Assembly (NCBI RefSeq): GCF_009914755.1
Contig: NC_060929.1
DNA: 64,000 nt
Origin: the human T2T-CHM13v2.0 reference genome, Homo sapiens
Reading direction: 5' to 3' (one strand)
Shown here: piece after piece, positions 7,613 to 60,050 of the stretch
Position numbering within the stretch: the first letter of the stretch is position 1
How the letters are laid out: each line of letters begins with the position of its first letter
Position numbers and translations under genes: made by a program
Notes under the pieces: model-generated
The model's input: only the letters and a program-made list of their open reading frames with translations
What the model was told of the DNA's origin: nothing
Databases searched by the model: none

Positions 7613-8388
7613 CTGTTATCAGCTATTTTGTGATGAACCTCTTGCCTAACCAGCATTGTTTATGACTATTTGTTCTCTCTAGTTTTCTTGGGGTTTTTTT
7701 TTTTTTTTTGACTAAATTGTCTAAGTTCCTTCAACTTCATAGGCTTATTTTCCATTCATTCAACATCTTATTGCCTCCAGTTTAAACCTTTTCCTAATCC
7801 TTTTCTCATTTAGTTGCTTAAGAAAATGAATAAGATCTCAAGAAACTGCCAATCTATTATGGGAGGCTTAATGAGAGGCTGCTCTTTTTGCAGTGGTGGA
7901 GATAAGAAAATAACTATGGGACAAGAAGAGAAAGAGTATTGCTATTAATTAGTACCTATTAATATTTTGTTCCATGCACTGATCTAAGGGTTTAGGAGAA
8001 TATCAGTAAATAAAATGGATAAAGATTCATGTCATAGAAATTCTGTCAAAGGTGGATACAAAATCAATAGTTGTTTTTTAATAAAAAATATTTTTATTAA
8101 AATTTGGAGGGCAGAAATATTTTCAGATATGTTAATGATTAAACATATTATCAAGGATGGGAATTATAACTCTTTTTTAAATTATTATACTTTAAGTTTT
8201 AGGGTACATGTGCACAATGTGCAGGTTAGTTACATATGTATACATGTGCCATGCTGGTGTGCTGCACCCATTAACTCGTCATCTAGCATTAGGTATATCT
8301 CCCAATGCTATCCCTCCCCCCTCCCCCCACCCCACAACAGTCCCCAGAGTGTGATGTTCCCCTTCCTGTGTCCATGTGTTCTCATTGT

Positions 8389-12251
<3,863 letters not shown>

Positions 12252-12299
12252 TTATTTTGCTCATTAGTTGATGCAGTTTCTTCCTAGTCTCGATGGTCT

Positions 12300-13316
12300 T
12301 TACATTTTGGCATGATTTTGCAGCGGCTGGTGCCAGTTGTTCCTTTCCATGTTTAGCACTTCCTTCAGGAGCTCTTTTAGGGCGGGCCTGGTGGTGACAA
12401 AATCTCTCAGCATTTGCTTGTCTGTAAAGTATTTTATTTCTCCTTCACTTATGAAGCTTAGTTTGGCTGGATATGAAATTCTGGGTTGAAAATTCTTTTC
12501 TTTAAGAATGTTGAATACTGGCCCCCACTCTCTTCTGGCTTGTAGAGTTTCTGCCGAGAGATCCGCTGTTAGTCTGATGGGCTTCCCTTTGTGGGTAACC
12601 TGACCTTTCTCTCTGGCTGCCCTTAACATTTTTTCCTTCATTTCAACTTTGGTGAATCTGACAATTATGTGTCTTGGAGTTGCTCTTCTCAAGGAGTATC
12701 TTTGTGGCGTTCTCTGTATTTCCTGAATCTGAATGTTGGTCTGCCTTGTTAGATTGGGGAAGTTCTCCTGGATAATATCCTGCAGAGTGTTTTCCAACTT
12801 GTTTCCATTCTCCCTGTCACTTTCAGGTACACCAATCAGACGTAGATTTGGTCTTTTCACATAGTCCCATATTTCTTGGAGGCTTTGTTCATTTCTTTTT
12901 ATTCTTTTTTCTCTAAACTTCCCTTCTCACTTCATTTCATTCATTTCATCTTCCATTGCTGATACCCTTTCTTCCAGTTGATCGCATCGGCTCCTGAGGC
13001 TTCTGCATTCTTCACGTAGTTCTCGAGCCTTGGTTTTCAGCTCCATCAGCTCCTTTAAGCACTTCTCTGTATTGGTTATTCTAGTTATACATTCTTCTAA
13101 ATTTTTTTCAAAGTTTTCAACTTCTTTGCCTTTGGTTTGAATGTCCTCCCGTAGCTTGGAGTAATTTGATCATCTGAAGCCTTCTTCTCTCAGCTCGTCA
13201 AAGTCATTCTCTGTCCAGCTTTTTTCCATTGCTGGTGAGGAACTGCGTTCCTTTGGAGGAGGAGAGGCCCTCTGCTTTTTAGAGTTTCCAGTTTTTCTGC
13301 TCTGTTTTTTCCCCAT
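12300..13316 (-). pseudogene. L1 ORF1p (RNA-binding chaperone), full 1017-nt span with two premature stops
   Basis: ATG at 13316 (ATGGGGAAAAAACAG); CGA>TGA stops at codon 49 (13170-13172) and codon 130 (12927-12929); RRM/CTD portion (RPNLRLIG...YPAKLS...HAKM) is open. Confidence 0.95.
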
Positions 13317-14221
13317 CTTTGTGGTTTTATCTACTTTTGGTCTTTAATGATGGTGATGTACAGATGGGTTTTTGGTGTGGATGTCCTTTCTGTTTGTTAG
13401 TTTTCCTTCTAACAGACAGGACCCTCAGCTGCAAGTCTGTTGGAGTACCCGGCCGTGTGAGGTGTCAGTCTGCCCCTGCTGGGGGGTGCCTCCCAGTTAG
13501 GCTGCTCGGGGATCAGGGGTCAGGGACCCACTTGAGGAGGCAGTGTGCCTGTTCTCAGATCTCCAGCTGCATTCTGGGAGAACCACTGCTCTCTTCAAAG
13601 CTGTCAGACAGGGACATTTAAGTCTGCAGAGGTTACTGCTGTCTTTTTGTTTGTCTGTGCCCTGCCCCCAGAGGTGGAGCCTACAGAGGCAGGCAGGCCT
13701 CCTTGAGCTGTGGTGGGCTCCACCCAGTTGGAGCTTGCCGGCTGCTTTGTTTACCTAAGCAAGCCTGGGCAATGGCAGGCGCCCCTCCCCCAGCCTTGCT
13801 GCCACCTTGCAGTTGGATCTCAGACTCCTGTGCTAGCAATCAGCGAGACTCCGTGGGCGTAGGACCCTCCAAGCCATGTGCGGGATATAATCTCCTGGTG
13901 CACCGTTTTTTAAGCCCATCGGAAAAGCGCAGTATTTGGGTGGGAGTGACCCGATTTTCCAGGTGCCGTCTGTCACCCCTTTCTTTGACTAGGAAAGGGA
14001 ACTCCCTGACCCCTTGCGCTTTCTGAGTGAGGCAATGCCTCGCCCTGCTTCGGCTTGCGCACGGTGCGTGCACCCACTGACCTGCGCCCACTGTCTGGCA
14101 CTCCCTATTGAGATGAACCCGGTACCTCAGATGGAAATGCAGAAATCACCCGTCTTCTGTGTCGCTCACACTGGGAGCTGTAGACCAGAGCTGTTCCTAT
14201 TTGGCCATCTTGGCTCCTCCC
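13317..14221 (-). promoter_or_regulatory. L1 5'UTR: internal sense promoter plus antisense promoter (ASP) firing on the + strand
   Basis: Complete 5'UTR, YY1 site AAGATGGCC intact, CpG partly retained; promoter activity is assumed from established L1PA biology, not shown here. Confidence 0.75.
13772..14026 (+). CDS. ORF0: L1 antisense ORF0 homolog, 84 aa, open
   Basis: MAGAPPPALLPPCSWISDSCASNQRDSVGVGPS...GVTRFSRC matches the primate L1 ORF0 peptide; ATG context GCAATGG; C-terminus differs from and is longer than the 71-aa L1HS form. Confidence 0.7.
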   Translation: MAGAPPPALLPPCSWISDSCASNQRDSVGVGPSKPCAGYNLLVHRFLSPSEKRSIWVGVTRFSRCRLSPLSLTRKGNSLTPCAF

Positions 14222-15844
14222 AACATGCTTTCTATCGGAATTATAACATTTTTAAACATGCTTGGCAAAAACACAGATGTTATTAGTGATATTTGCATTA
14301 GGAAATAATTATAATAAAGAATAAATGTAATCAGTTTTACCTTGATATAAATTTTACATTTTCCAAAACCAAATTGTGTAATGAAAGCCATTACAATTTT
14401 TTCTTTGTAATCTGGAATCTTACTAGAAAATGTTGATGAGGCTTTGAGACTCGAAGATAAATTGTTTGTTGTGGAATTTACAAATGCTTTTTGGCAGTGA
14501 TCAGTTGTCCTCTAAGAGTGTTTGGCAATCTTTTGGATTCAAAATGTTGGATCTTCACTTGCTAATATTTCTGAGCAGGAGTGGGGGTGATGTTCCCATC
14601 TGTGAAGAGTCAAGAGAGGTGGGAAGGAAGTGTTCTGGCTTGAAGATTGTATCTTCTGCACACCTGTGTGGCAAAGTTGTCTGGTGGGTGGAGGATTTAT
14701 TTGATGAGGGGGCAGCAAATTGAAAGAGGATGCAGAAGCGGTAGAGTAGTTTTCCCTGGGCTTTAAAAATACAAATTATTTGGGGAAGATACCACATCTT
14801 AATTCTTTATAAACTAACGTCTTAATATCATAGGAAAGAAACCACATAAAACTGTGTTTCAAAATGGTTCTATTTTAGTATATTTAAAGTACATGTAAAA
14901 ATGATAAAAAAAAAAGAAAAAAAATAAAGCACCGCTTTTAGAAGAAATCGAGTGGAAATTTAGAAATTCGGAGTGAATGCAAGAAACTGTTATTGAAAAT
15001 CCAGTCTGTGTCTAGCACTTTGCCAAGGCCCCTAGAATAAAAAAGTTGGCTAAGATACATCTCCAGTTCCCAAAAACTCTCCATACATTAGAGAATGGGG
15101 TGACATACAACACCAAATAAATACTGTTCAAGATTGCAGATGGTTTATCAGGATAGATTTCCACAAATTACAGTGGGGGTGGCTGGTTCTGGGAAGTTTT
15201 ATCATCAGGTTTTTTCTCTTGTTTTATTTACCCGTGTGCTTTTCTTGATCTTACAGTTTAATTGTATGTGTGGCTTTTTGTTCAAGTTATCTCAATTTCT
15301 TCTGAGAAGAAATATAGTTTCAAAATCAATCAATAAAGATAATCCTCTGATAAAGTAAGATCTGAATATACAAATCATGGTTACAGTAATCTTACCATTA
15401 TATATAAATTACCTCTCAAACAAATGGGCCATTCAGAAAAAGGCTCAGAGTGAATTAGCTGGAGGGGTTGTCAAGGGTCATAGTTTTTACTGCTTTGAAG
15501 AGATTATCACTGGATGATTTCCTCACATTTATATAACTTCAGTCTCCTGTTCTTTTTACTCTGGCTGAGGTACAAGGAATCAGGAAAGAGAGGGCAACTG
15601 TGAGGAAGGAGCATTCTCCAGGTGGGAAGGTTAGTAAAATTAACCATACAATTACAGAATGGGGAAAATGAGGCCTGCCTAGGTGATTAGGGAAGGAGAT
15701 GGTTACAAACTTGGAGATGTCTAATCTCAGTAAGCAGGTCAAAGAGGTCAGCTTTCACTTAGCAGCTCCAGAGCACAATCAGATGAGTATAGCTAAATGT
15801 TTTCAATTCTAAAAAATCAAGTCAGGGAGAAATTTTGTTTGGGC

Positions 15845-16688
15845 CTAATGGGAAACAGTTTCTCTGCTCACAACATTTCTGACACCAAGTATATGGATTT
15901 TCTAGACCAAGAAATTCTCGAGTTCTCTTCAGAGACCAACTGGGGATCAACAATTCAATTTAATTCTGACACCCAAGGTGAGTGCAGACCCTACAGGTTA
16001 AGGGTTCAGTCCCACAAGACTGCTCCCCACTTCTGATGCCAATCACAAGTAGTGAGTCCCCAGGTTACCTATACTTCTGACCTGGCTACGTGGACCCCTC
16101 CTCAAGTCTGATAATTTGCTATAACCACTCACAGAACTCAGAGGAACACTTCGTATTACTGGTTTATTATAAAGGATATTCTAAAGGATACAAATGAACA
16201 GTATGACAGTCAGATGAATAGGTTCATAGGACAAAGTCCAGCCAATGGTCCTAGGTACAGGAACTTCTGTATCCGTGGAATTTTGGATGCATCACCTTCC
16301 TGGCAAGTGGACACATTCACCAACCTGGACACTTTCCCAATACCTTTGCTTAGGGGTTTTATGAAGGCTCTATTATGTAGGCATGATTGATTAAATCATT
16401 GGCCTTTGGTGATTAGCTCAATCTCCAGCTCCTCTTCCCTCCCCAGATGGGGCTGAAGGTTTCAATCCTCTAAACACACAGTTGGTTCCTCTGGTAACCA
16501 GCCTCCATCCTTCAAGACTCACCTCATTAGCATAAACTCAGGTGTGGTTGGAAGTGGCTTATTATGAACAATGAAAGATGCTGCTTTCACTTCTATTACT
16601 CAGGAAGTTGCTAGTGTTTTAGAAGCTTTGTGCCAGGAACTGGGGACAAAGACCAAATATTTATTTATTATTATATCACAACATCACA
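15845..16688. mobile_element. MER21-family solo LTR
   Basis: TTCTGACACCAA...CAATTCAATTTAATTCTGACAC...CAGGTTAAGGGTTCAGTCCCACAAGACTG...ATATCACAACATCACA match recalled MER21. Confidence 0.8.
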
Positions 16689-30685: not shown

Positions 30686-33600
30686 TTCCTTTTCTATGAG
30701 GTATTTCTGTATCTTTTTTTAGCCATCTGCTCAACTTTTCCAGGACATATCTGGCACAGGGACTACTTCAGTCTGCTCCCACAGACTTCCCCTCTCTTCC
30801 CTTTCTTCCTTTCCAAACCGGCAGTGGTGTGGAATGCAGTCTTTCTAATTTGTTGTCCCTTTCATTTTCAGGGTTTTGACATTGCTTACTAGGAGAAAAC
30901 AGACTTTAACAAGCATGAGGAGGTGTTAAAGCTTAAATTCTACAGAGTACTTACAGTTATGATCTCTGGTATGATTCTTGCTTTCTTTGCAGAAATGTTC
31001 TTTATTCATTCAAAAATTACCTGCTTTCTCCTTTCTCCATGAAGACCCTCTTTTAGAAGAATCAGTACAGAGTGTGTGTGCTTGTTTGATAGGGTAACAA
31101 TTATAGATTTTTGCTCCATGAAGGAAAGGTTCCTTTGGGAATTCCTTTGCAAACTCAGCACAAAGTCTGTTATATTAATAATTTCTCAAACTCAAAAAGT
31201 GCTTGTGGTTGCTCCGTATGGGACTTCTGAAAAAAAATGTATAGCTGCAATTTGTGGGGAAGCTATACTGAGAAATAGATTGTGAAATTTATCTTTTATA
31301 AGGGTATTGTTGATGTTTTTGTTCCATTCGTTGTCCTCTTTTGAATAACTCTTGGGAAAAATTTCTATCTTGCTTTAGTATCAGTTGATTATTGATTTAT
31401 TTTCCTAAGTCATTGTTCCATCTTAGGACTCATACTATATATAACTGATAAAGCTCATCTTTTCTGATATTTTGCCTTTTTTAAAACCTCATCTTTTTTT
31501 TCCCTTTTTCTTTTTAGTGTTTACATTTTGACTTAGTGACTTTATATTTTAAATATCTTTGTAAGCTATCTTAAATAGTTCCTAAAACCAAGGTAGCTGT
31601 TGTATTTGTAAGTATTCAAACTAGGGCATCCTAAAATCCATAATTTCTTCACAATAATTATAGTTATTTGTTTATCTCCATGTACCACAAACTGTACAAA
31701 AACACTGTGTACAAAACACTGTATAAATCATCTTTTTTAATCTCTATAATAGCGTTATGCAGAAGATATTATTTTCCTTTTTAGGTGAGAAAATTAAGGT
31801 ATAAAAAGGTTAAGATCACAAAATTATGACCTTAGAAATTAGAAAGTCATATTTTGAATTCAATGGGACCCAGAACTTGGGCTCTAGCCTCTACCATTTC
31901 TAATTACTTGAAAAAGGATGAAGTAAATAGGTCCTCCATGTTTTGAAGGCTTATTGACTTATGACTTTTGTATGTTAGGGGCATAAGTATGTGGGCGATC
32001 CAAATCTTCGTTGGCAATGGTATTTGAACAGCTCAATGTCCAAGGACTTTAAAATATGTTGGAATAACTTAGCATTATTATCAAAAGTCAAGTTACAGAT
32101 CAAGGTGAGCGTAATATATAGCTTTATTTGCAATCACCTCTGATAATTTTACCTGAATTTATTTTAAATGGTAGAGTGTGGCCAGAGGAGATTATTAGAT
32201 GCATCATTACAAATTACAATTTTTGTGAAATTGTGAAATTCAGTAATTGGTTGTGTGAAGAAAGATACTCTTAGGGATAAACTTTCATTGTTATTGTTGT
32301 TCACTGTATTTTATTTCATTTTAAAAATCTACCTGATAATTCAGACAGGTGGTGTTCATTTTAAAAATGAAATGTAAATTCATCTGAAAATGAGCTAATA
32401 TCCTCAAGTGTTACCACTTGCTGTGTCTGAAAGCTGAGTACTTCACCCAGCCACACCTCCTAGTTGTACTGATGAATTGTGAAGGAGAGAGGAGGGAAGA
32501 GCAGTTTGTTTTCATCTGTCCTTGATTGAGAAGTCCAAATATATTTTCTTTAGAGTATGCTTTATGGTCTTTCTACAGAATATTAAATTACAAGAGAAAA
32601 AAATGTTTCTTCTCTCTTTTTTTGTTCCCAATTTCCTTTAAAAATTTTTTTCCTAACAGTTTTGGAAAGCATTCTCCTTCCAAGCATTTAAAAGCTTTTT
32701 TGGCATCAAATGCTGCCAGTGTTAACACTGGCAATTGGTGCAACTTACAATAGTGCATTAAATATAAATCTAATTTTTATATCACTTGCTTAAAGTCGAT
32801 TTGTGATAAACCCTGTTGGTAATGATATGAATTATATGGTATTATGAATTATTGCATGTGTGCCTCATGCGACTGAACTATATGGATGTAGGCATTTACA
32901 TGTTAACTTCAGTATCACTGAAGCTCTACAGATTAATTTTTGTTGTGTCTTTGTCAGCTTTGAATAAGGTCATGATGAGTTTCTATGTCCTTGAGTTAGG
33001 TAATTTCCTGTCTGGGAAAGAGACACTGAGTAATTAAAATAAATTATTTTAAGCACTTTTTGGAATTTCAAATTAACTTCTGACATAAACCTTTCTCATC
33101 TGGATAACTTCTCAGTCTTGAGATTTTTAGTGGCATGCCCTGTTCCCTTCGTGTAATTAGAATATTGCAGGGTATTTGAGCATTTAGCAGGTTTATCAAA
33201 TGTTTTGAAGCCCCCTGAGGAATACACAGAAGCATAATATTTTCTAAACTTTTCTGGTCTGTCTCTTTTTGTGAACGGGAGCGTTTATTTTGGTTTTAAC
33301 TACACAGTATTTGATTTTAGTCTGATTGATGTTTCCTCGGCCCTGGACTCTGCACAGTTAGGTTTTGCTTAGAGCACTCACCTTCAGTGAGTCTAACTTT
33401 TCTCTTTGCTTCCTTAGTTCTCTAGAGACCTTTTGGCTCCTGGTTTATTTTTTATTGTTGTTCTAGGGTCTGTGCCTTTACCAAATTAGATTTTCCCCTC
33501 AATTTAACCTTGCTTTTTAAAACAGAAGGTGAAAGCGACACTATCCTCCAACCTTTCTCAACTTCAGCTGAGGTTCGCATGAGAGAAGCAAGCACTACTG

Positions 33601-35003
33601 AAAACGACTTCAGTAGTTGTTTTCTTGTCTCCTGAGAGTGGTACATAGGTAGTACCCTTCTGGATACATAGAAGTGAAATTAATTCACTCCATTAACTGA
33701 TGCCTCTGGACATTAGAGCTTAATTATCTTGCAGAACCCCAGTTCAGAAGGACAGTAAAACTTGGTTTAAATGGATCCCCCAAAAATGGGTGGGATGGAT
33801 ACTGCTTCCTCAGGGCCTACATTGCACAAGGTCATGTACAGGACATCTTAAGATGGATTATTTCATTTAATATGAGACTTCACTTGAAAAGCTGTGAAAA
33901 TAGGGCCAGTGATTGAGCTTCAGTTAGACCTTTCATTATCTTTTATTTATTTTTTAAAAGGCTTACAGGAGACCCAGGCTAAGTCAAGTATGTTGTTTTC
34001 TCTTGCAGCTGAAATGATAAATCAAAGACCTTAAGACTGAGCTACCTAGCAATAGAGACCATGTCCATTTTGCACTCTTCTCTATCCTTAGCAAATAGAA
34101 TTTCTGGCCTATTACAGGTGTATGTTAAATATTTTTGTTAAAAGTCAGATGCAATCTAGACCAGATATACTGTGCATATTCATTCTTAATATCCCCCAAG
34201 ACAGTTTTATATGCTTTCATTTAAAATGTATACAGATTGTAAATAGAATATGAATCTGGTTATGGTCTGGCTGAGCCCCCAGATCTTTATTAAAGTGGGT
34301 GGATAACAATTCAGAGAAGGCTAGGCTTGAGTGGATTTGTTTCATGAACCTGGTGGGTGAGAGAGGCAAGCTTCAACAAGAGGAAGTCTTGTCCTGGAAG
34401 TCTGTCACAGGAAGCTCAGATTCTCTGGTTCCTGGGCCTTTGGCTGATGCTGCACCAGGTAAATGAAGAAGGAATTACAATAGGACAGACACTTCTCATC
34501 AGGAACTGTCATGAATCACTGCTTTATTGAGAAGAAATTGTTCAGTAATATGAGGAAATTGTTCACTTTTGACATAAGAGTGATCATCAGTGGCACAGTG
34601 ATGCATGAAATAAAGTATTCACTACTATTTCCCGATCCATTTAAAAATAATTTAGGCTTAAAATGACATCAGAGATATTTTTCTATATTATACATATTAA
34701 GAACAATATGACTTTGGTGAAAAGGACTCTAATAAAAACATGAAATCATTTAGAAAATGGAACAAAACTTTGACAAGTAGAAAAGTTTATGATTTCAAAT
34801 ACTATGAAGCTATTTCTAAAAAGTATTAATTAGTATTAATTATAATAGCATTGCCTTGATTACCTTTGTTTTTTTACCCAGAGTGTGGTATTTTGAGGCA
34901 TCCCTTATAACTAATTGTACTTTGTTGAAATCGGTATGCCAACTATGTGAGATTACATACAATTCCATATGAATAAATGCACCAGGTAAGAAAACACACA
35001 CAC

Positions 35004-35052
35004 TTTTTTTTTTTTTTTTTTTTGAGACGGAGTCTTGCTGTCCCCTGGGCTG
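35004..35052 (-). mobile_element. 3' end (tail + 29 nt) of the Alu broken by the inversion
   Basis: T20-GAGACGGAGTCTTGCTGTCCCCTGGGCTG then an abrupt switch to L1MC sequence. Confidence 0.9.
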
Positions 35053-35630
35053 CAACTTTCTTCCAGAGTACCTGTGAAAAAAGGGTTAGTGGGGAAGAGT
35101 AACTTACAATGGAGAAACATAACAAACACTACCTCAGCCAAGTGATTAAGATCATCACCAACAATGCTAAGTCATGTTGATAGAATGTATCTTCAATTTG
35201 ATACAATTAAAATAGCACTTCCCATAACCCCAGTCCAATATGTGAAAAAAATCAGACAAATCCCAATTTACGGATATTCTACAAAATACCTGATTAGTCC
35301 TCCTCAAAACTGTCAAGGCCATCAAAAAACAAAGAAAGTCTGAGAAATTGTCACAGCACAAAGGAGCCTAAAGACACAGAAGATGTAACATGGTCTCCTG
35401 GATGGTACTCAGGAACAGAAAAAGGACATTAGGAAAAAAAAAAAAACCTAAGGATATTATCTGAATAAAATATGGACTTTAATTAACAATAAAGTATCAT
35501 ACTGGTTCATTAATTGTGACAAGTATACCATATTAATATGAGATGTTAAAAATAGGAGAAACTGTATGGAGGGTATTGTTCTGCAAATCTAAAGCTGTGT
35601 TAAAATTACATGTTTATTTTTTAAAATTGC
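35053..35630 (+). mobile_element. L1MC-type 3' end (continuation of 41015-44100, flipped by the inversion)
   Basis: CAGACAAATCCCAATT...ATTCTACAAAATACCTG...CTCCTCAAAACTGTCAAGG...AAAGTCTGAGAAA; homologous to the - strand copy at 59357-60050. Confidence 0.85.
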
Positions 35631-35639
35631 ACATAAAAG

Positions 35640-36390
35640 ATTACTAATTCTAAAATATAAAATATTACAAATCGAAAAGAGAAAAACAACTCAAAGAGAG
35701 GGAAAGGCTATTTAACAGGATATCTACAAGAGAGAAAATCCAAATGACCATAAAATTTAACCAACAAACCAAAAGAAGATACTGACCTTATCTAATAAAA
35801 ATTAAAACATGATACTCTTTTATAACCATCAGTTTAGCCTACAATTAAAAGAGTAAAAATATCCATTGCTTACAAGCATGCAGAAAAATGGACAATCTCC
35901 TACATCGTTGAGTGAAGTGTGATTGCTATGACCTTTTACAAAGTATGAATAATATCTATCACAATAAGAAACATACATACACCTTTATCTAGCAATTGTA
36001 GTTTCCCAATCTATCCTACAGCAATAAAAGCAGCACAATGAAAATACATATGCATTGTTACATTGTAATGTTGTAAAACAACATTTTCAGTGGTGAAAAA
36101 TAGAAACAAACTTAATGGCCATCAATAGGGTAATGGTTAAATAAATTATGGTATATATAGACTGTAAAATATCATGCAGTTACTAAAAAGAGTATATGTC
36201 TATTAACCTAGAGAGATGCTATGAAGTTATTTTAAGTGATGAAAGAAAATTGTAGAGTAATATGTACAGTGTGATAGTATTTTTAAAACCCTTTCTATGT
36301 GCCTCTAAGTTTAAATATTTTTGGAAGCCTGCACAACTGGCTGTTAACATCAGTTATCACAGGAGAATGGAATGCAGCTGTAAATTTAAT
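35640..36390 (+). mobile_element. Ancient L1ME-type fragment
   Basis: Degenerate ORF2 C-terminus/3'UTR motifs (ATGGCCATCAATAGGGTAATGGTTAAATAAATTATGGTATAT). Confidence 0.65.
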
Positions 36391-36402
36391 ATCTTGTTAT
36401 TA

Positions 36403-36455
36403 TACACACACACACACACACACACACATACATACTAAAATAAAATAAAATAAAA
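36403..36455. repeat. (CA)n microsatellite followed by (TAAAA)n
   Basis: Seen directly. Confidence 0.9.
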
Positions 36456-37244
36456 CCTCAAGCATGATTGCCGTATGTTACATTTAGCTGTGGGATGTTC
36501 AGGAAAAATAAATGGCAGAGCTGCAGCAATTGACTTACATGATTGCTGCCTAGCAGCATTTCTGTAACACAGTAAAATGAGAAGATATTCTCCTTGGGAT
36601 CACCGTAACCTACTTTTTACATTAAGAGAAAAAGCACCAAGGTATTTATTTTTATCAGCGACCTACATGAGAGCAATGAGCCCAGGAAGTCTGTATTTGC
36701 TCTCATATAGGTGAGACTGCTAACTTCCTAGAAGTTGGGAAGAGTTCACACCAACTTTTGATAATTCAGAAAAATAGCATTTTAGAAAATAAAATGAAGT
36801 CCCACAAACATAAGTATCAAATCATACACAGGGAGGACCCAAAACAAGAAATTCGATTCAGGTGATGTTGGCAGCCATGGGACATGTCTGAAACCAGTTC
36901 AATCAGCAAGAGTAGCAGGGTACATTGAAAAGACACAAACCCAACTGGATAAGTCTAGAAAGCAAAAGCCAGAAAATGGAAAATGTAGTAGAACATTTCA
37001 AAACTGTTCAATTTCTTCTACACACAACATAGTCAAAGCTTTATTCAGCCACACAAAGGAAACATAGTATCTGAAGCTACTCAATCCAATCTTAAATGTA
37101 TGGCTATACTTATAATCAAACACTGTTTAACAGAAGCAGTGTCAATGAGTATGTTTTGACAGAAGGGAGGGAGGGAAAGAGGGAAGCAATTAAAAGTAAA
37201 GTTGCAAAAGATAATGTTGAAAGCCTGCACTAGGGAAATAGCCA

Positions 37245-37640
37245 TTTTTTCTTTTAAAAAATTTTATTGATACATAGCAATGGCATGTATTTATGGGGTA
37301 TATGTGATATTTTGATACATTTGTACAATGCATAATGATCAAATTAGGGTAATTGAGGTATCTATCACCTCAAATATTTATTTCTTTGTGTTGAGAATAT
37401 TTCAAATCTTTTCTTCTAGGTATTTTTAAAAATACAATAAATTACTGATAACTATAGTCACCTTACTGTGCTATCAAACACTCCAGCTTATTCCTTCTAT
37501 CTAACTGTACTTTTGTACCCACTAAACAACCTCTCTTCATTCTCGCCCCCCATTTTTCCCAACCTCTAATAACCACAATTCTACTCTCTACCTCTATGAG
37601 ATCTGTTTTGGCTCCCACATATGAGTGACAATGTGTGATA
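37245..37640 (-). mobile_element. L1MA-type 3' end, 5'-truncated
   Basis: TTTTATTGATACATA...TATTTATGGGGTA...CTCCCACATATGAGTGA; diverged TSD-like flanks GGAAATAGCCAT / GGAATGGCTCAT. Confidence 0.8.
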
Positions 37641-39699
37641 AGGAATGGCTCATCTTTAATTTGAAAGACTATGGATATAGAAAGGCAGACCTTCTTGAGT
37701 CTTCATGGACTGAGAGAACAGACAGAAGGAAAATTATATAAATATTTATAGCCAACCTGGTTAACACAGTCTTGCAAATTGAAGGAAAATATGTCCCAGC
37801 TGTAGTAAACCTATAGAATGAGAGTTTTATGAGCAATCTTGAAGCATATCCACTGGACTTTATAGTAAGTTCTCTAGACATATGAATATAAGACAAGATG
37901 CTAAAAGGAACAGATACAAAGGAATCCACATGCCAGATAAGGATATCAGTGTATTTCAGATTAGAGCTTCAGAAATATTAAGATGACAGGCAAGAGTCAG
38001 GCCTCAGAAGTGGCAAAATTACAGTGCTTTCTTTTGTAACCAAGTCTGTCACATGAAGGGTACATCTTAACTCCAAAGATGTCAGGAAGAAACAGAAAGT
38101 GTTTTAAAAGTCTTACTTACACTCAAGGCATTTGCTGAAGCAAAAGAATAAAGTAGAAAAGAATAATATGCTGTGACCAGACAAAACAAAAGTTAACATT
38201 AAGAGATTAGCAAATGTATCCACTCTGGCTTAAAGACCACTTTTGGTTCTGGTCATAGACCCCTCAAAACGCTTTGAGAAAAAAAAAACACACACACACA
38301 CATGAGTTTTCCTAGAAATGTTAAGCCTCCCTCAATGAGGTAATTTTGAGAGAAAAAGGATGTGGGGACAAGGCAGAATAATGGAAGGAGTGCTGGAACA
38401 AAAGTGAGAAACCTTAGGTTCTAGTCTTGGCTCTACCCCTGATTCACTGTGACACCCTGAGGTTTTCTGTAACATTCTTTACGACATGAGAGGGGTGAAG
38501 TATCCCATTCCAATACTTTAAGTGGTATAACTGAAATGTGTTTCATTTTGCTTTAAATGGAAATTTACTTGTGCTTATGGTTCTGAGTTTGAGCCAGTTT
38601 CCCATATTTTCCTTCTGAATAAGGCTATAATAAAATCTTCATTACAAATTTTTGTAATATTTTAAATTCTTACCTGGAACTGCAATGGTCTAGGCAAGTG
38701 TTTATAAACTTGTTTTACAATGCACTTTGATCAACAGGCTGGTTACACAAAGACTGATGTACAAAATAGAAAAGGGGGGCTGCATTGGTGAAGACTAGAA
38801 GCCAGGGTTTGGAGAACAGGAACAAGGGCTACGAAAGGTCAAGTTCTGCTCACTCAACTTCCCCACTGTGTTTTTGGAGAGGCCCCTGTGGGCTGCTACT
38901 GAAGCCCTCAGACTCCTAAGATTAACAGTGAAAGTCAAGGTTCTGTGAGAGGTTTTACCCCAAACAAGTGATGTGGGCACACATATTTGGCAACAAACGT
39001 TGAGGAACACAACTCTGTTTAAACCACCGTAAAACCTCCGTTTCTACAGTGAGGGAACTAACACCATTTGGCCTTTAGTTGGTAACAATTAATCACAAAT
39101 GCCTGTAAAGGACTGAAAAGGCCGCTACAGTGCTCTGTTACAGTTTTCCAGGTTACCCCAAATGTGCTCATGTGAATTTTTTGTTTACAGAACTATTAAA
39201 ATGAAAATACAAACATAAAACCAAAACCGTGTGACAACTGCAGACCCACAAGAATATGCCTTTCACCCCATAGAGTTTCTCTAACCTCTTTTTGATTAAA
39301 ACTGATTTCAGAAAGGGCAATGCAATCTCCATTTTCTTTCTCAGAAGTCTTTAAGATATATATTACATCTGTGAAAAGTCGCTTTACTGAATAACTGGCA
39401 CAGACTTCAATGATGAATACATCAAGAATCTCAGCTTCAGCCCAATCTGTGCCTCTACTGGGATTCAGCTGCTCCTGGGCCTTTAGGGCGACCCAAGGGA
39501 TTGCTCCCACCCACAGCCCACCTGAGGCCTGTTTGCATGAGTCAGTTTGTAGGAAGTCTGGTGTGGAAGCAAGAAAGGGCTACACAAAAGTCAAGATATG
39601 GGGTAGCAAGCCCTGTGGATTTCCCTAAGCCATAGGAAGAGAGAGGTGGCAGGCCAGTGGTACCTAAAGGCACAGGAGAACATCTAAATAAAGAAGTCT

Positions 39700-40470
39700 C
39701 TCACCCAGTCAATATTTATGGAGTGCTTACTATACATTCCATGTATTGTTCCAGGCAGTGGCAATACAGCAGTGAAAGAGCCACGGTTTTCTGCCTCTAG
39801 TAGGAAGAATAGCACATAAGTAAGTTGTAAATCTTAACAAGTGCTATGAAGGAAATAAAGAAAGCCTGTGGTAAGTGGGGACAACTTTGAATAAAATATA
39901 AAGGGAAGACCTCCACAAGGAGGGACATGGGAGCTGACAAGGAAAGATGAGAAAATGGAGTGAGAAGGAGAAAGACACTTCCAGGAAATAGCGAGAACAC
40001 AAGTCCTGTGGCAGGAGAAAGCTTGGCACTTGCAGGGACCAGAAGGCCGGCAGCATAGTGGGAGCCTATTGAGAGTGGGTGGTACAGCAGGACAGGCCAG
40101 GTTCCCTCCCACACCATAAGGGTTTGCATTCAATCCTCAAAGCTATGGAAACCCACGGGATGACTTTAAACAAATAATTTATTTTACTTACTGCTTTAAA
40201 ATATCACTCTGCTGTGAAAGGATGGAGTATACAAAGCAAGAGTGTGTAAAGGGAAAATAGAATTATCTTAAAGTCAGCCAGGAAGAAAATGATGGTGTCT
40301 GGGACCAGGGGTGGCAGTGAGAATGAGACAAGAAAATAGTTTCAAAGTTTATTTTGGAAATAGAATTGCTGATGGGTTGGTTATGGGAGGTAATGGAAAA
40401 GGCAAAATCAAGAATGACTCCTAGGTTTTAGCTTAAGTAATTGGATGTATGGTGGTGGTTTAGGTAAGGG
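39700..40470 (-). mobile_element. L2 fragment
   Basis: AATATTTATGGAGTGCTTACTAT...GTTCCAGGC...; GAATTGCTGATGGGTTGG...AAGAATGACTCCTAGGTTTT. Confidence 0.7.
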
Positions 40471-40761
40471 GTAAGGGAGAAGTTAGCACAATCTTAGGAG
40501 AATAATATGAGATGTTGACTAATATTAACCAAACATTAGCTGGAGATTTCTAACTCTTAAGATCTAGGTAGGACAACCTTGAGATCTCAGATCTATAGCC
40601 TGGGAAAGAGTAGATTCCAAGATTTCTCTTTTTTCCCAAGGGCTTAGGATCTCACCATTGTCTTGTGTTTCTGCCTTCTGTGTCCTCACCTCCAACCTCC
40701 ATTCATCCCTCTCAGCCTTTTCCCTATTTTCTTTTTCTTTATTTTAAAAATGTGTATATGA

Positions 40762-41014
40762 GGCCAGGCATAGTGGCTCATGCCTGTAATCCCAGCACTT
40801 TGGGAGGCTGAGGTGGGCAGATCATGAGGTCAAGAGATAGAGACCATCCTGGCCAACCAACATGGTGAAACCCCATCTCTACTAAAAATACAAAAATTAC
40901 CTGAGCGTAGTGGCACACACCTGTAGTCCCAGCTACTCAGGAGACTGAGGCAGGAGAATCGCTTGAACCTGGGAGGCGGAGGTTGTGGTGAGCCGAGATC
41001 ACACCACTGCACTC
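40762..41014 (+). mobile_element. AluSc-like element lacking its 3' end (which lies at 35004-35052)
   Basis: GGCCAGGCATAGTGGC...GAGGTCAAGAGAT.GAGACCATCCTGGCCAAC (Sc-type); stops abruptly at ...CCACTGCACTC with no tail. Confidence 0.92.
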
Positions 41015-44000
41015 TGTGTGTAGCCCAAACACTTAAAGAATGGAGAGTTATGCTCAACCTCTTTTTGAGGGTCCAATGTCTACGTAAATTATTTGTAATT
41101 CTTCTCTCAGTGAGATTGTTTGTTCTCTTCTCCCCTATTTATGTATTTCTTCAATCACTTATTTTTGTCAATAAGTGCTGTAGAGCAGTGGATGTTAATT
41201 TTATATTTTGGGTTCTAATTTGATATTATGTTATTTATTTTAGTGTTCCTCCTTCACCCCACTTATTAACTAGAAGAAATTTTTTCAGTTCGCTCCTGTC
41301 TCCTGTGCCCATTTGACATAATTGCACCTCTTTTGTTTTTTTTATTTTGTTTTGTTTTTGAGCACTTCCTTAGCTTTCTGGGACTAAAGATACTCCAGGC
41401 TCAAGTTGCATATTTTCTGTCCCAGTTCTAGAATCAGCCACTTCTCCAAGGAGCCCTGGTTCCTCTTGTTGGATACTGTATTAGAAAACAAACAAGCTAA
41501 CATTTGGACACTAGATATGCCTGCTGCTGTGGCAGTGTCATTGCCTCAAGGCCACCTCAGCTGATAAAACAAGGAAATGTATCTATATATACATATATGA
41601 ATATATTTTTCTATATGTAACCATCTGTCTATATTATGCTCAATATGAGTTTATACTAACATCCACAATGCTAATTTATTACTACCTGTATAATTCTAGC
41701 CTCTTCCTCTTGCTCATCTGTAATCTCCCTCCAACAATGAGAAAAACTGGCTTTCCTCAGCTGTCATTCATTTTTTAATTTGTTGCATTATATATATGAT
41801 ATCAGAATTGTTAACCCATACTCGCAGGGGAAACAACTTTATCAACAAGAGTTCAATATTTATGACAGTTTTTTTGCCTTTAGTCTTACATATTCCACTT
41901 ACTTCCGAAGCTATTTGGGTTAGCACTTTTTGTCCCCACTCCTTTCTGTGAAGTTGTTTCATAATTTTTTAATACAGTTAGACTGCTTTGTCACATTCTG
42001 CAGGCTATCCTGGTATCCTTTGAGCTCCTAAATTATATTTTTAAATTTTCATACCTTAAGGTTTACCCTTTGTGCTGTAAAGGTTTGGACCAACTCTCAT
42101 GTATCTGCCATTTCAGTAATACAGAGGATAGTTTCAATGATCTGGAATATCTCTGGTGCTTCAGTTGTATGAGCCCCCTAACCACTGATCTTTTTATCTT
42201 CTCACTACTTTTGTCTTTTACAGAATGTGACATAATTGGAATCATAGAGTAAGTCTTCTCAGACTGGTATCTTTCACTTAGCCATGTGTATATAAGATTA
42301 ATACATGTCTTTTCATGGGTTTATAGCTCATTGTTTTATTGCTCAATAATATTCCATTATATGGATATATTGCAGTTTGCTTATCCATTCATTTATTGAA
42401 GGATTTCTTACCATCTTCCAGATTTTGCTGATTATAAATACAACTTCTGAAAACATTCATGCTCAGGTTTTTGCATGGACATAAATTGTCAATTAGGTAG
42501 ATACCTAGGAGTGCAATTATCAGATCATATGGTAAGACCATATTTACCTTTGTAAAAAGCTGCCAAAATGTCTTCCAAAGTGGTTGTACCCATCAGCAAT
42601 GAATGAGAATTCATATTGTTTTGCATCCTTGCTAGCAATAGGCATCATCAGTTTTTAGATTTTTAACTATTCTAGTAGATATATAGTGGTATCTTGTTGT
42701 TTTAATTTGTGACTTCCTAATGACAAATTATGTTGAGCAATTTTTCATATATTTATTTGCTATCTGTATATAATCTTTGGTGAGGTGTCTGTTCAGATCT
42801 TTTGTCTGTTTTTTAGTTGGTCTGTTTTCCTATTGTTGATTTTTAAGTGTTCTTTCTATATTTTGAATTTAAGTCCTTTATCAAATACATATTTGCAGTT
42901 TTTTTTCTCCCAGTAGTGGCTTGTCTTTTCATTTTCGTAACAGTGTCTTTCACAGAGCACACATTTTTAACTTTAACAAAGTCCAACTTATGAATTTCTC
43001 CCTTCATAGGTTGTGCTTTTGGTGTTATAAATGAAGTTCATCATTAAACCCAAGAACACAGGTATTTTCCTATGTTTTCTTTTAGAAGTGTTATAATTTT
43101 GAATGTTACATTTAAGTCTGGGATCCAGTTGAATTAATTTTATGAAAGGTATGACGTATGAATTTAGGTTCTTTTTTTTCTTTTAACATATGGTTATCTA
43201 ACTGTTTCAGCACCATTTATTGAAAAGACAATCCTTTTTTTCATTGAATTGCCTTTGCTTCTTCCTCAAAGATAAAATGATCATATTTATGTAGGTCTAT
43301 TTCTGTACTCTCTATTCTGTTGCATTGTCTATTATTTTTGTAATAACACATTGTCTTGATCTCTATAGCTTTATATTAAGGCTTTATATTAAGTCCTCCA
43401 ACACTGTTCTTCTTCTTTAGTTATTGTGGTGGCAATTCTAGGTCTTTTGCCTTACCATATACACTGTAGAGTCAGTTTTTCAATAGAGACGAAATACCTT
43501 GCTGGGATTCTGGTTGGGGTTGCTTTAAAGTTACAGGCCAAGTTGGGAAGAATTGATACCTTAACAATGTGTGTTTTAATTCATAAACACAATATTTCTC
43601 CATTTATTTAGATGGTTTTTATTTCTTTCATCAGAATTTCATATTTTTTGATATATAGATTTTGTATATATACATAAGTATTTTATTTTATTTTTTGGGT
43701 GCTATTTTAAATGGTATTATTTTTTAAGCTTCAGATTCCAATTGTTCATTGCTTTTATATAGAAAAAGAATTGGACTTGCTTATTAGTTCCAGGAATTTT
43801 GTTGTTATTGTTGTTTCTTTGGGATTTTCTACATGGACAATCATTGCTATTTGTAAATACAGTTTTATTTCCTCATTTATAATTTGTTTATTTTTTATTT
43901 CCTATTTTTGTCTTATTGCACAAACTAGGACTTCTGGTACAATGCTTAAAGGAGTGGTGAGAGGAGGCATCCTCACCTTGCACCTAATTTAAAGGAGAAA

Positions 44001-44100
44001 GTGTCCAGACTTTCACCTATATGTATGAAGTGAGCTGTGGGTCTTCTGTAGAAGTTCTTTATAATTTTCAGGAAGTTCTCCTCTATTCCTGGTTTGCTGT
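41015..44100 (-). mobile_element. L1MC-type element (~3 kb), body of the copy cut by the inversion
   Basis: 3'UTR motifs (AGAATCAGCCACTTCTCCAAGGAGCCCTGGTTCCT) then ORF2 remnants (CAGCACCATTTATTGAAAAGAC, GGAGTGGTGAGAGGAGGCATCCT). Confidence 0.85.
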
Positions 44101-52309: not shown

Positions 52310-52666
<357 letters not shown>

Positions 52667-59356: not shown

Positions 59357-60050
59357 TTTTTAAAAAATAACTTAAAATTTTAGAACTGTTTTACATTTAT
59401 AGGAAAATTGCTAAGATAGTACAGAGAGTTCCCATATGTTCTATATGTAGTTTTCCCTATTGGTAACATCTGATATTACTATGGTACATTGGTCACAATT
59501 AATGAATCCATACTGATCCATTAACTAAAGTCTACACTATATCAAATTTGCTTAATTTTTACGTAATGTCCTTTTCTGTTCCGGGATCCATCCAGGATAC
59601 CCCATTACATTTAGTTGCCGCATCCCCATAGATTCCTATTGGCTATTATGATTTCTCAGACTTTTCCTGTGTTTGATGACCTTGACTGTTTGAGGAGTAC
59701 TGCTCCAGTACCTGTAGAATGCACCTTAACTGGGATTTGTCTGGTGTTTTTCTTAGGAATAGACTGGGTTATAGGATTTTAGAGTTGAAGACCACAGAGG
59801 TAAAGTACTATTCTCATGATATAGTAAGGGGACACTCTAGCAACAGGAGTTATCACTGTTAATGATGACCATGTCAGGTTTCCCCACTATGAATGTACTC
59901 TTTCCTCTTCAGTTTTTATACTGTACTATTTGGAAGGAAGCCACTTCCCCCACTTAAGCAGTGGGGAGCTATTTTCACCTCCTGGAGTGCAGAATACTTA
60001 TGTAAGTTATTCCAAATTCTTCTGCATGGGAGATGGATCTCTTTTCCCCC
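59357..60050 (-). mobile_element. L1MC4-like 3' fragment
   Basis: GATAGTACAGAGAGTTCCCATAT...TTTCTCAGACTT...TTTGATGACCTTGAC...TTTGAGGAGTACTG. Confidence 0.8.

What the first reader, a model, noticed from the sequence alone, without database searches (positions are those of the whole stretch)
35004..41100. Hidden ~5.96-kb inversion (35053-41014) that cuts one Alu and one L1MC in two
Seen: an orphan Alu 3' end on the - strand stops at ...GCTGTCCCCTGGGCTG|35052. A tail-less Alu on the + strand stops at ...CCACTGCACTC|41014. These are the complementary parts of one Alu (GGGCTG+GAGTGCAGTGG). The other two ends also fit: the reverse complement of 35053 onward (...GTACTCTGGAAGAAAGTTG) runs into 41015 (TGTGTGTAGCCCAAACACTTAAAGAATGGAGAGTTATGCTC). 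A paralogous L1MC at ~59920-60010 crosses the homologous position uninterrupted. The reunited Alu has TSD-like flanks (AAAAATGTGTATATG at 40746 vs AAAAAGTGTGTGTG read off 35008 downward). Unique sequence inside is A-rich against T-rich outside. Inference: the inversion is younger than the AluSc insertion, so it could be lineage-specific or polymorphic. Repeat annotation would show only four unrelated fragments.
Basis: seen in the sequence. Interest (0 to 1): 0.85.

Follow-up and report, generated by a model that had tools for sequence, protein, structure and literature searches.

The report
Clean 6-kb inversion splitting an Alu
A 5,962-base stretch inside a long intron of the human CAST gene sits back-to-front compared with its original order, cutting one Alu and one old LINE-1 in two; it is a genuine but ordinary kind of rearrangement whose age could not be measured here.

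Summary
The minus-strand Alu tail piece (35004-35052) and the plus-strand Alu head piece (40762-41014) fit together with no base missing or doubled against 4 of 4 reference Alus in the window. The other two ends (35053 read backwards, 41015 read forwards) are neighbouring parts of one old LINE-1. 12 of 29 genome paralogs, and the in-window copy at about 59,884-60,011, run straight across the join. Flipping 35053-41014 therefore restores both elements, so this is a simple in-place inversion.

The reunited Alu has the usual insertion marks: a T20 tail, a 15-bp target-site duplication (12 of 15) and a TTTTT/AAAA nick site exactly where the duplication predicts it. So the Alu inserted normally first and the inversion came later.

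No inverted repeats and no microhomology sit at the breakpoints. Two double-strand breaks rejoined without homology is the most likely mechanism.

Not tested:
- Age, lineage specificity and polymorphism, because no primate or other human assembly was available.
- The names AluSc and L1MC.

No annotated exon lies inside the segment. This is an ordinary kind of event, and interest is modest.

The parts
34995..35009 (.). Left copy of the Alu target-site duplication (its last Ts merge with the tail)
   Evidence: It matches the reverse complement of 40746-40760 at 12 of 15 positions.
35004..35023 (-). A-tail of the split Alu, seen as T20 on the + strand
   Evidence: (period 1, 20 copies, 100% matches).
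35024..35052 (-). Alu 3' piece (last 29 bases before the tail)
   Evidence: It aligns to 52559-52609 of a reference Alu. It abuts the head piece in the alignment with 4 of 4 reference Alus.
35053..41014 (.). Inverted segment, 5,962 bp. Breakpoints are at 35052|35053 and 41014|41015
   Evidence: Flipping it restores both the Alu and the LINE-1. A/T skew is +0.129 inside and -0.108 outside.
35053..35577 (+). 3'-terminal piece of the old LINE-1, now on the + strand
   Evidence: It is 70-79% identical to 40 scored genome matches, from 3,163 first-look candidates. The matches cover query positions 76-600, which is window 35577-35053.
37244..37640 (.). Unrelated interspersed repeat of about 390 bp carried inside the inverted segment
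   Evidence: It is 77-79% identical to 39 other genome copies. Its family name was not tested.
40746..40760 (.). Right copy of the target-site duplication, now inside the inverted segment. The TTTTT/AAAA nick site lies at its outer edge (40745|40746)
   Evidence: In the ancestral orientation it reads CATATACACATTTTT followed by AAAATAAAG.
40762..41014 (+). Alu 5' piece, 253 bp, complete at its head
   Evidence: It is 86.8% identical over 242 bases to the Alu at 52321-52558. Alignment.
41015..44095 (-). Body of the same old LINE-1 (3' part of ORF2 and the 3' region), on the - strand
   Evidence: 41015+ follows the 35053 piece in 12 of 29 paralogs. 42298-44095 is colinear at 59% identity with 8472-10396 of an in-window LINE-1. 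That element has ORF1, endonuclease and reverse-transcriptase domains.

Best explanation
This is a simple in-place inversion of 5,962 bp (35053-41014) relative to the ancestral order.

Step 1, shown by sequence marks: an Alu inserted in the minus orientation by ordinary LINE-1-driven target-primed reverse transcription, about 5.2 kb from the 3' end of a much older minus-strand LINE-1.

Step 2, inferred: the chromosome later broke at two points, inside the Alu (29 bases before its tail) and inside the LINE-1 (about 525 bases before its 3' end). The fragment between the breaks was rejoined back-to-front by end joining without homology.

The Alu break was rejoined without losing or gaining a base. 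At the LINE-1 break, a change of up to about 5 bases cannot be excluded.

The inverted segment lies in an intron of long CAST isoforms and of a lncRNA and contains no annotated exon. No functional effect is expected or shown.

Timing: after the Alu insertion, so within anthropoid primate history if the usual dating of Alu S-type elements applies (recalled knowledge). Otherwise the date is unknown.
For: - Alu halves are contiguous to the base: reference Alu 52558|52559, and adjacent columns against 4 of 4 reference Alus.
- LINE-1 halves are contiguous in 12 of 29 paralogs, with spacing differences from -28 to +2 bp and 8 within 7 bp (alignment). The in-window paralog agrees.
- The second element is a LINE-1. 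It is colinear with an in-window element that has Transposase_22, Exo_endo_phos and RVT_1 domains.
- Classical insertion marks on the reunited Alu: T20 tail, a 15-bp TSD matching at 12 of 15 (7 of 10 outside the T run, P about 0.004), and TTTTT/AAAA exactly at the TSD edge. The chance of that motif lying 12-18 nt from a random point is 0.0014.
- No inverted repeat of 20 nt or more pairs the two breakpoints. The 3 pairs found all lie elsewhere.
- No shared bases at either junction (read).
- The A/T skew flips exactly over the segment.
- The segment is single-copy as a whole; its only full-length match in the genome is itself.
Against: - No outgroup or second human assembly was available, so the ancestral orientation rests on the repeats alone. 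It cannot be shown that this assembly represents the usual human state.
- At the LINE-1 junction, a 5-base patch differs from the paralogs at every position and is one base shorter. A small junctional change or filler cannot be told apart from ordinary decay of a copy that is 21-30% diverged.
- 17 of 29 paralogs did not show a clean crossing. Three have about 310-370 extra bases between the halves. Four align only to a later part of the right piece. Ten have no credible match to it within the 1.5-kb flank held.
- The element's own open frames gave 0 Pfam matches above the curated cut-off in 13 fragments.
- The skew is partly made by repeat orientation, so it is weak support.
Confidence: 0.85

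Rival explanations
1. A single event: the inversion was made during the Alu insertion itself. The first cDNA was primed at the nick next to 35003/35004. A second 3' end, from a break 5.7 kb away at 41015, primed inside the same Alu RNA (twin priming). The freed 5.7-kb fragment was then ligated back inverted between the two cDNAs.
For: - The topology fits. In Alu-sense reading, an inverted 5' part lies upstream of the 3' part with its tail, as in twin priming.
- Experimental LINE-1 expression produced two inverted halves of one RNA's cDNA at two distant junctions.
Against: - This model predicts no target-site duplication, yet a 15-bp one (12 of 15) is present, with TTTTT/AAAA at its predicted edge.
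- The site that would have been nicked under this model reads ...CACAC followed by TCATAT, which is not the endonuclease motif.
- There is 0 bp of microhomology at the would-be secondary priming junction. In that paper 71% of twin-primed junctions had 2 bp or more.
- The internal breakpoints are exactly adjacent (0 bp). All 32 twin-primed cases in that paper had 1-10 bp deleted (22) or duplicated (10).
Confidence: 0.05
2. A replication-based template switch (FoSTeS/MMBIR) produced the inversion, rather than two breaks and end joining.
For: In a study of 45 human polymorphic inversions, 18 of the 21 non-homologous ones had small deletions or insertions that the authors thought compatible with one complex FoSTeS/MMBIR event (PMC6748972, passages read). 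The odd 5-base patch at the LINE-1 junction could be such a scar.
Against: There is no microhomology at either junction. The Alu junction has no base lost, gained or copied. No duplicated or deleted flank was detected.
Confidence: 0.07
3. The inversion is not a general feature of the human genome. It is either an assembly error or a change private to the sequenced cell line.
For: Nothing positive. Perfectly clean junctions would also be expected of an artefact. No second human sequence could be consulted, and the three junction-word scans found 0 matches. Those collections are not expected to hold human DNA, so the scans say little.
Against: The segment is unique sequence, shorter than typical long reads, and without flanking inverted repeats that could mislead an assembler. 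This argument rests on general knowledge of how this assembly was made, not on a test here.
Confidence: 0.03
4. There is no inversion: four unrelated repeat fragments happen to lie at these places.
For: None beyond the fact that truncated Alus and LINE-1 pieces are common.
Against: - The Alu pieces are complementary to the base.
- The LINE-1 pieces are contiguous within a few bases.
- Both fits occur at the same two points and with the orientations an inversion requires.
- TSD copies are found only when the pieces are paired.
Confidence: 0.005

Closest known systems
Non-homologous (NH) simple inversions of the human genome, such as the HsInv series genotyped by Giner-Delgado et al. 2019 (PMC6748972)
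   Same: The size is within their range (83 bp to 415 kb). There are no inverted repeats at the breakpoints, and the event appears to be unique. The orientation can be polarised from what the breakpoints cut.
   Different: In that set 18 of 21 NH inversions carry small deletions or insertions. Here the Alu junction is exact and the LINE-1 junction is uncertain by at most about 5 bases. Whether this one is polymorphic is unknown. The main text of that paper holds no 'chr5' or '5q15', and 'CAST' matches only an author's name. Its supplementary tables could not be read.
Inversions by recombination between inverted repeats (NAHR, including Alu-Alu or L1-L1 recombination-mediated inversions)
   Same: Retrotransposons sit at the breakpoints.
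   Different: NAHR needs two homologous copies in inverted orientation and leaves chimeric elements. Here single elements are cut and no inverted repeat pairs the breakpoints.
Twin priming and LINE-1-associated rearrangements (Ostertag and Kazazian 2001, seen only as a reference entry; PMC11702581, passages read)
   Same: The 5' part of a retroelement is inverted relative to its 3' part.
   Different: The halves are 5.7 kb apart. A normal TSD and nick site flank the reunited element. There is no microhomology, and the internal breakpoints are exactly adjacent.
Human-chimpanzee inversion catalogues from assembly comparison (Feuk et al. 2005, PMC1270012; only the search listing and the start of the abstract were seen)
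   Same: The same class of submicroscopic inversion, detectable by alignment to an outgroup.
   Different: Whether this locus is in that catalogue could not be checked.

Membership tests
Simple non-homologous inversion (two breaks, end joining) | Flipping one continuous segment restores continuity at both junctions | tested here: met
   The Alu is restored to the base. The LINE-1 is restored in 12 of 29 paralogs and in the in-window copy.
Simple non-homologous inversion (two breaks, end joining) | No inverted homologous repeats at the breakpoints | tested here: met
   Only 3 inverted pairs of 20-23 nt were found in 33500-42600, and none pairs the two breakpoints.
Simple non-homologous inversion (two breaks, end joining) | Junctions are blunt or have only small indels or microhomology | tested here: met
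   There is 0 bp lost or gained at the Alu junction and no shared bases at either junction. The LINE-1 junction is uncertain by about 5 bp or less.
Simple non-homologous inversion (two breaks, end joining) | Outgroups show the opposite orientation | not testable with these tools
   No primate assemblies are held.
NAHR-mediated inversion | Highly similar inverted repeats flank the segment | tested here: not met
Classical target-primed Alu insertion (for the reunited Alu) | Target-site duplication flanking the element | tested here: met
   15 bp, matching at 12 of 15; 7 of 10 outside the T run, P about 0.004.
Classical target-primed Alu insertion (for the reunited Alu) | Endonuclease nick motif TTTT/AA at the edge of the duplication | tested here: met
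   TTTTT/AAAA is at the predicted place. The chance within 12-18 nt of a random point is 0.0014.
Classical target-primed Alu insertion (for the reunited Alu) | A-tail and complete body | tested here: met
   T20. The head and tail pieces together cover the reference Alus from first base to tail.
Twin-primed insertion or retrotransposition-coupled rearrangement | Microhomology at the secondary priming junction, and 1-10 bp deletion or duplication between the internal breakpoints | tested here: not met
   0 bp microhomology and 0 bp gap or overlap. The expectations come from PMC11702581.
Twin-primed insertion or retrotransposition-coupled rearrangement | Under the coupled-inversion model, no target-site duplication for the reunited element | tested here: not met
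   A TSD and nick site are present.
LINE-1 (identity of the second split element) | Homology to an element encoding ORF1, endonuclease and reverse transcriptase | tested here: met
   42298-44095 is colinear with 8472-10396 (59%) of an element with Transposase_22, Exo_endo_phos and RVT_1. Its own 13 open fragments gave 0 matches above cut-off.
Subfamilies AluSc and L1MC | Diagnostic positions of the subfamily consensus | not testable with these tools
No repeat consensus library is held.

The most novel reading that the evidence does not exclude
The inversion and the Alu insertion were one germline event. A twin-primed Alu intermediate had its second primer come from a break 5.7 kb away, and it was resolved by re-ligating the freed fragment backwards. 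That would be an evolutionary fossil of the LINE-1-driven rearrangements so far seen mainly in cancer genomes and over-expression experiments.

Separately, and not excluded, the inversion may be human-specific or still polymorphic. On a flat prior over the time since the Alu inserted, I put that at roughly 15% and a few percent respectively.
Probability: 0.05. Interest if true: 0.55.

Novelty: new member of a known kind. Interest (0 to 1): 0.27.

Why it matters
The locus shows that a balanced rearrangement can be recognised and polarised from a single genome, because two split repeats each give an independent check. The split Alu also sets an upper age limit.

The unusually exact Alu junction makes it a clean example of blunt rejoining.

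In itself it is an ordinary small inversion in an intron, with no annotated exon or functional element inside, so no biological consequence is expected. It would become more interesting only if it proved human-specific or polymorphic (a new marker near CAST/ERAP1), or if it proved coupled to retrotransposition.

Tried and rejected
- Junction 32-mers were searched in genome contigs (both junctions) and viral contigs (junction 1), hoping for stray human or primate contigs. There were 0 matches, which is uninformative.
- Literature searches for this locus found no paper on this inversion. 'inversion' + '5q15' + 'breakpoint' gave 18 papers, 15 listed, none about it by title or abstract start. 'calpastatin' + 'inversion polymorphism' gave 2 papers, both unrelated by title. 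This does not show that it is absent from catalogues.
- Pfam on the split LINE-1's own open fragments gave 0 matches above cut-off in 13 fragments. One fragment had two sub-threshold chance-level hits.
- Rfam over 33000-44000 gave 0 families.
- A first attempt at a fitted alignment of the in-window paralog was mis-parameterised and is not used. One search replaces it.
- NAHR is rejected.
- LINE-1 endonuclease motifs at the two inversion breakpoints are not seen in the sequence.
- Dating the inversion from the A/T skew is rejected as too coarse.
Full report
**What is at the two points**

On the + strand, a run of 20 T (35004-35023) is followed by 29 bases of Alu antisense sequence that stop at 35052. 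From 35053 the sequence is unrelated to Alu.

About 6 kb to the right, an Alu in the + orientation begins at 40762 and stops abruptly at 41014, without its last 29 bases and tail. From 41015 the sequence is again unrelated to Alu.

**Alu halves**

I searched both pieces against the window with BLAST.
- The head piece ends at base 52558 of the complete Alu at 52321-52609 (86.8% over 242 bases).
- The tail piece starts at base 52559 of the same Alu (82.4% over 51).

In a MAFFT alignment with four reference Alus from the window (three complete, one partial but covering the point), the two pieces occupy adjacent columns in all four. No column is shared and none is skipped. The two pieces are therefore one Alu cut between two neighbouring bases and now lying in opposite orientations.

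**LINE-1 halves**

The reverse complement of 35053-35652 was searched in the window's own genome.
- There were 3,163 first-look candidates, 40 were scored, and all 40 matched at 70-79% identity.
- This piece is therefore a high-copy, old interspersed repeat. Its matches begin at about window 35577, which marks the 3' end of the element.

For the 29 paralog loci held with 1.5-kb flanks, I aligned the 35053 piece and the 41015 piece separately.

| Outcome | Paralogs |
|---|---|
| Right piece follows directly on the same strand, spacing within 30 bp of expectation (differences -28 to +2; 8 within 7 bp) | 12 |
| Right piece follows, but after 309-371 extra bases (probably later insertions; not examined) | 3 |
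| Only a later part of the right piece aligns | 4 |
| No credible match (score 25 or less) | 10 |

The alignment of the 12 places the end of the left piece and the start of the right piece at the same spot of a conserved stretch.

The left piece aligns up to 59940 (window 35056) and the right piece from 59951 (window 41030), with no interruption. In 500 shuffles of the short left tail, 4 reached the observed score, so that single short alignment is only modest evidence. The 12 genome paralogs carry the weight.

The element is a LINE-1.
- Window 42298-44095 is colinear (59% identity) with 8472-10396 of a younger element in the window.
- The minus-strand frames of that younger element hit Transposase_22, Exo_endo_phos and RVT_1.
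- The old copy's own 13 open fragments gave nothing above cut-off.

**Precision of the junctions**

The Alu junction is exact.

At the LINE-1 junction, the left piece ends ...AAAGTTG and the right piece begins TGTGTGTAGCCC.... The paralogs have a 5-base patch there that differs at every position, and the split copy is one base shorter. In a copy this diverged, that may be ordinary decay, TG-repeat slippage, or a small junctional scar. I put the uncertainty at about 5 bases.

Neither junction shows shared bases between the joined ends (read). No inverted repeat of 20 nt or more pairs the two breakpoints.

**Order of events**

When the Alu is reunited, its flanks carry the marks of ordinary target-primed insertion.
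- A 15-bp duplication: CACACACACTTTTTT on the left and CATATACACATTTTT on the right in the ancestral orientation. It matches at 12 of 15, or 7 of 10 outside the T run. A random 10-mer from the window does as well with P about 0.004.
- The right copy is followed directly by AAAATAAAG, so the nick site reads TTTTT/AAAA exactly at the edge of the duplication. That motif lies 12-18 nt from a random point of this window with probability 0.0014. For the minimal TTTT/AA the probability is 0.011.

The Alu therefore inserted normally and was cut later.

This matters because the topology also resembles twin priming: the inverted 5' part lies upstream of the 3' part in Alu-sense reading. A recent study of experimental LINE-1 expression found two halves of one RNA's cDNA at distant junctions, and three insertions with inversions of neighbouring genomic DNA (PMC11702581, passages).

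The coupled model fits poorly here.
- It predicts no duplication.
- It would place the nick at a site that is not the endonuclease motif.
- It usually shows microhomology at the secondary priming junction (71% with 2 bp or more in that paper). Here there is none.
- It usually leaves 1-10 bp deleted or duplicated between the internal breakpoints (32 of 32 in that paper). Here the value is 0.

I give it 5%.

**Mechanism**

With no homology, no microhomology and an exact junction in the Alu, two double-strand breaks rejoined by classical end joining is the most likely route. This is inferred, not shown.

A replication-based template switch is the main alternative for the mechanism (7%). In a set of 45 human polymorphic inversions, 21 were non-homologous, and 18 of those carried small deletions or insertions (PMC6748972, passages). 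An exact junction is therefore the minority pattern but not new.

**Composition**

A/T skew is +0.129 inside the segment and -0.108 outside. Excluding the LINE-1 and Alu pieces, it is still +0.113 over 35600-40762. Among 233 sliding windows of the same length, the maximum starts at 34501.

Part of the interior is itself repeat: a roughly 390-bp element at 37244-37640 is 77-79% identical to 39 other copies. The rest could not be classified, so the skew is supporting evidence only.

**Context**

According to the annotation supplied with the finding, the segment lies in an intron of long CAST transcripts and of LOC101929710. The nearest listed exons (15906-15977 and 43010-43061) are outside it. 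Rfam found nothing in 33000-44000.

**What remains open**

When the inversion happened, and whether it varies among people, cannot be addressed with the tools at hand.
- No primate or second human assembly is held.
- Junction words were absent from the two other collections scanned (uninformative).
- Two literature searches for the locus listed no paper on it.
- The main text of PMC6748972 contains no 'chr5' or '5q15'.

The only bound is that the inversion is younger than the Alu.

The subfamily names AluSc and L1MC are unverified. Misassembly or a cell-line-private change is unlikely on general grounds but was not tested.

**Verdict**

The finding is real and correctly read. It is a clean non-homologous inversion that can be polarised from a single genome. 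It is a new example of a well-known kind, with no evident functional consequence.

Noticed in passing
window 8167-14224 (minus strand): A much younger, nearly full-length LINE-1. It has long open stretches (436, 238, 365 and 208 aa) that hit RVT_1, Exo_endo_phos, Transposase_22 and the two other ORF1 domains. Its frames are broken into several pieces.
   Followed up: partly
window 43010-43061: The alternative CAST exon listed in the supplied annotation lies inside the old minus-strand LINE-1 body (41015 to at least 44095). It is therefore an exon recruited from antisense LINE-1 sequence, about 2 kb from the right breakpoint.
   Followed up: no
window 37244-37640: An interspersed repeat of about 390 bp inside the inverted segment, 77-79% identical to 39 scored copies elsewhere in the genome. 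From memory it looks like the antisense 3' end of another LINE-1 family. This was not tested.
   Followed up: no
window 35004-35023: The tail of the split Alu is an uninterrupted run of 20 T, although the Alu body is about 13% diverged from a near-consensus neighbour. Such pure runs are usually maintained or regrown by slippage.
   Followed up: no
window 34995-35003, 40751-40760 and 41015-41021: Short CA/TG dinucleotide runs sit at the Alu target site and also at the start of the right LINE-1 piece. (AC)14 and (AC)7 arrays lie inside the segment at 36404-36432 and 38288-38302. No link to the breaks is shown.
   Followed up: no
window 39500-40500: A local rise in G+C (0.44) and in G-over-C skew (+0.27) just inside the right end of the inverted segment. 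It was not examined further.
   Followed up: no
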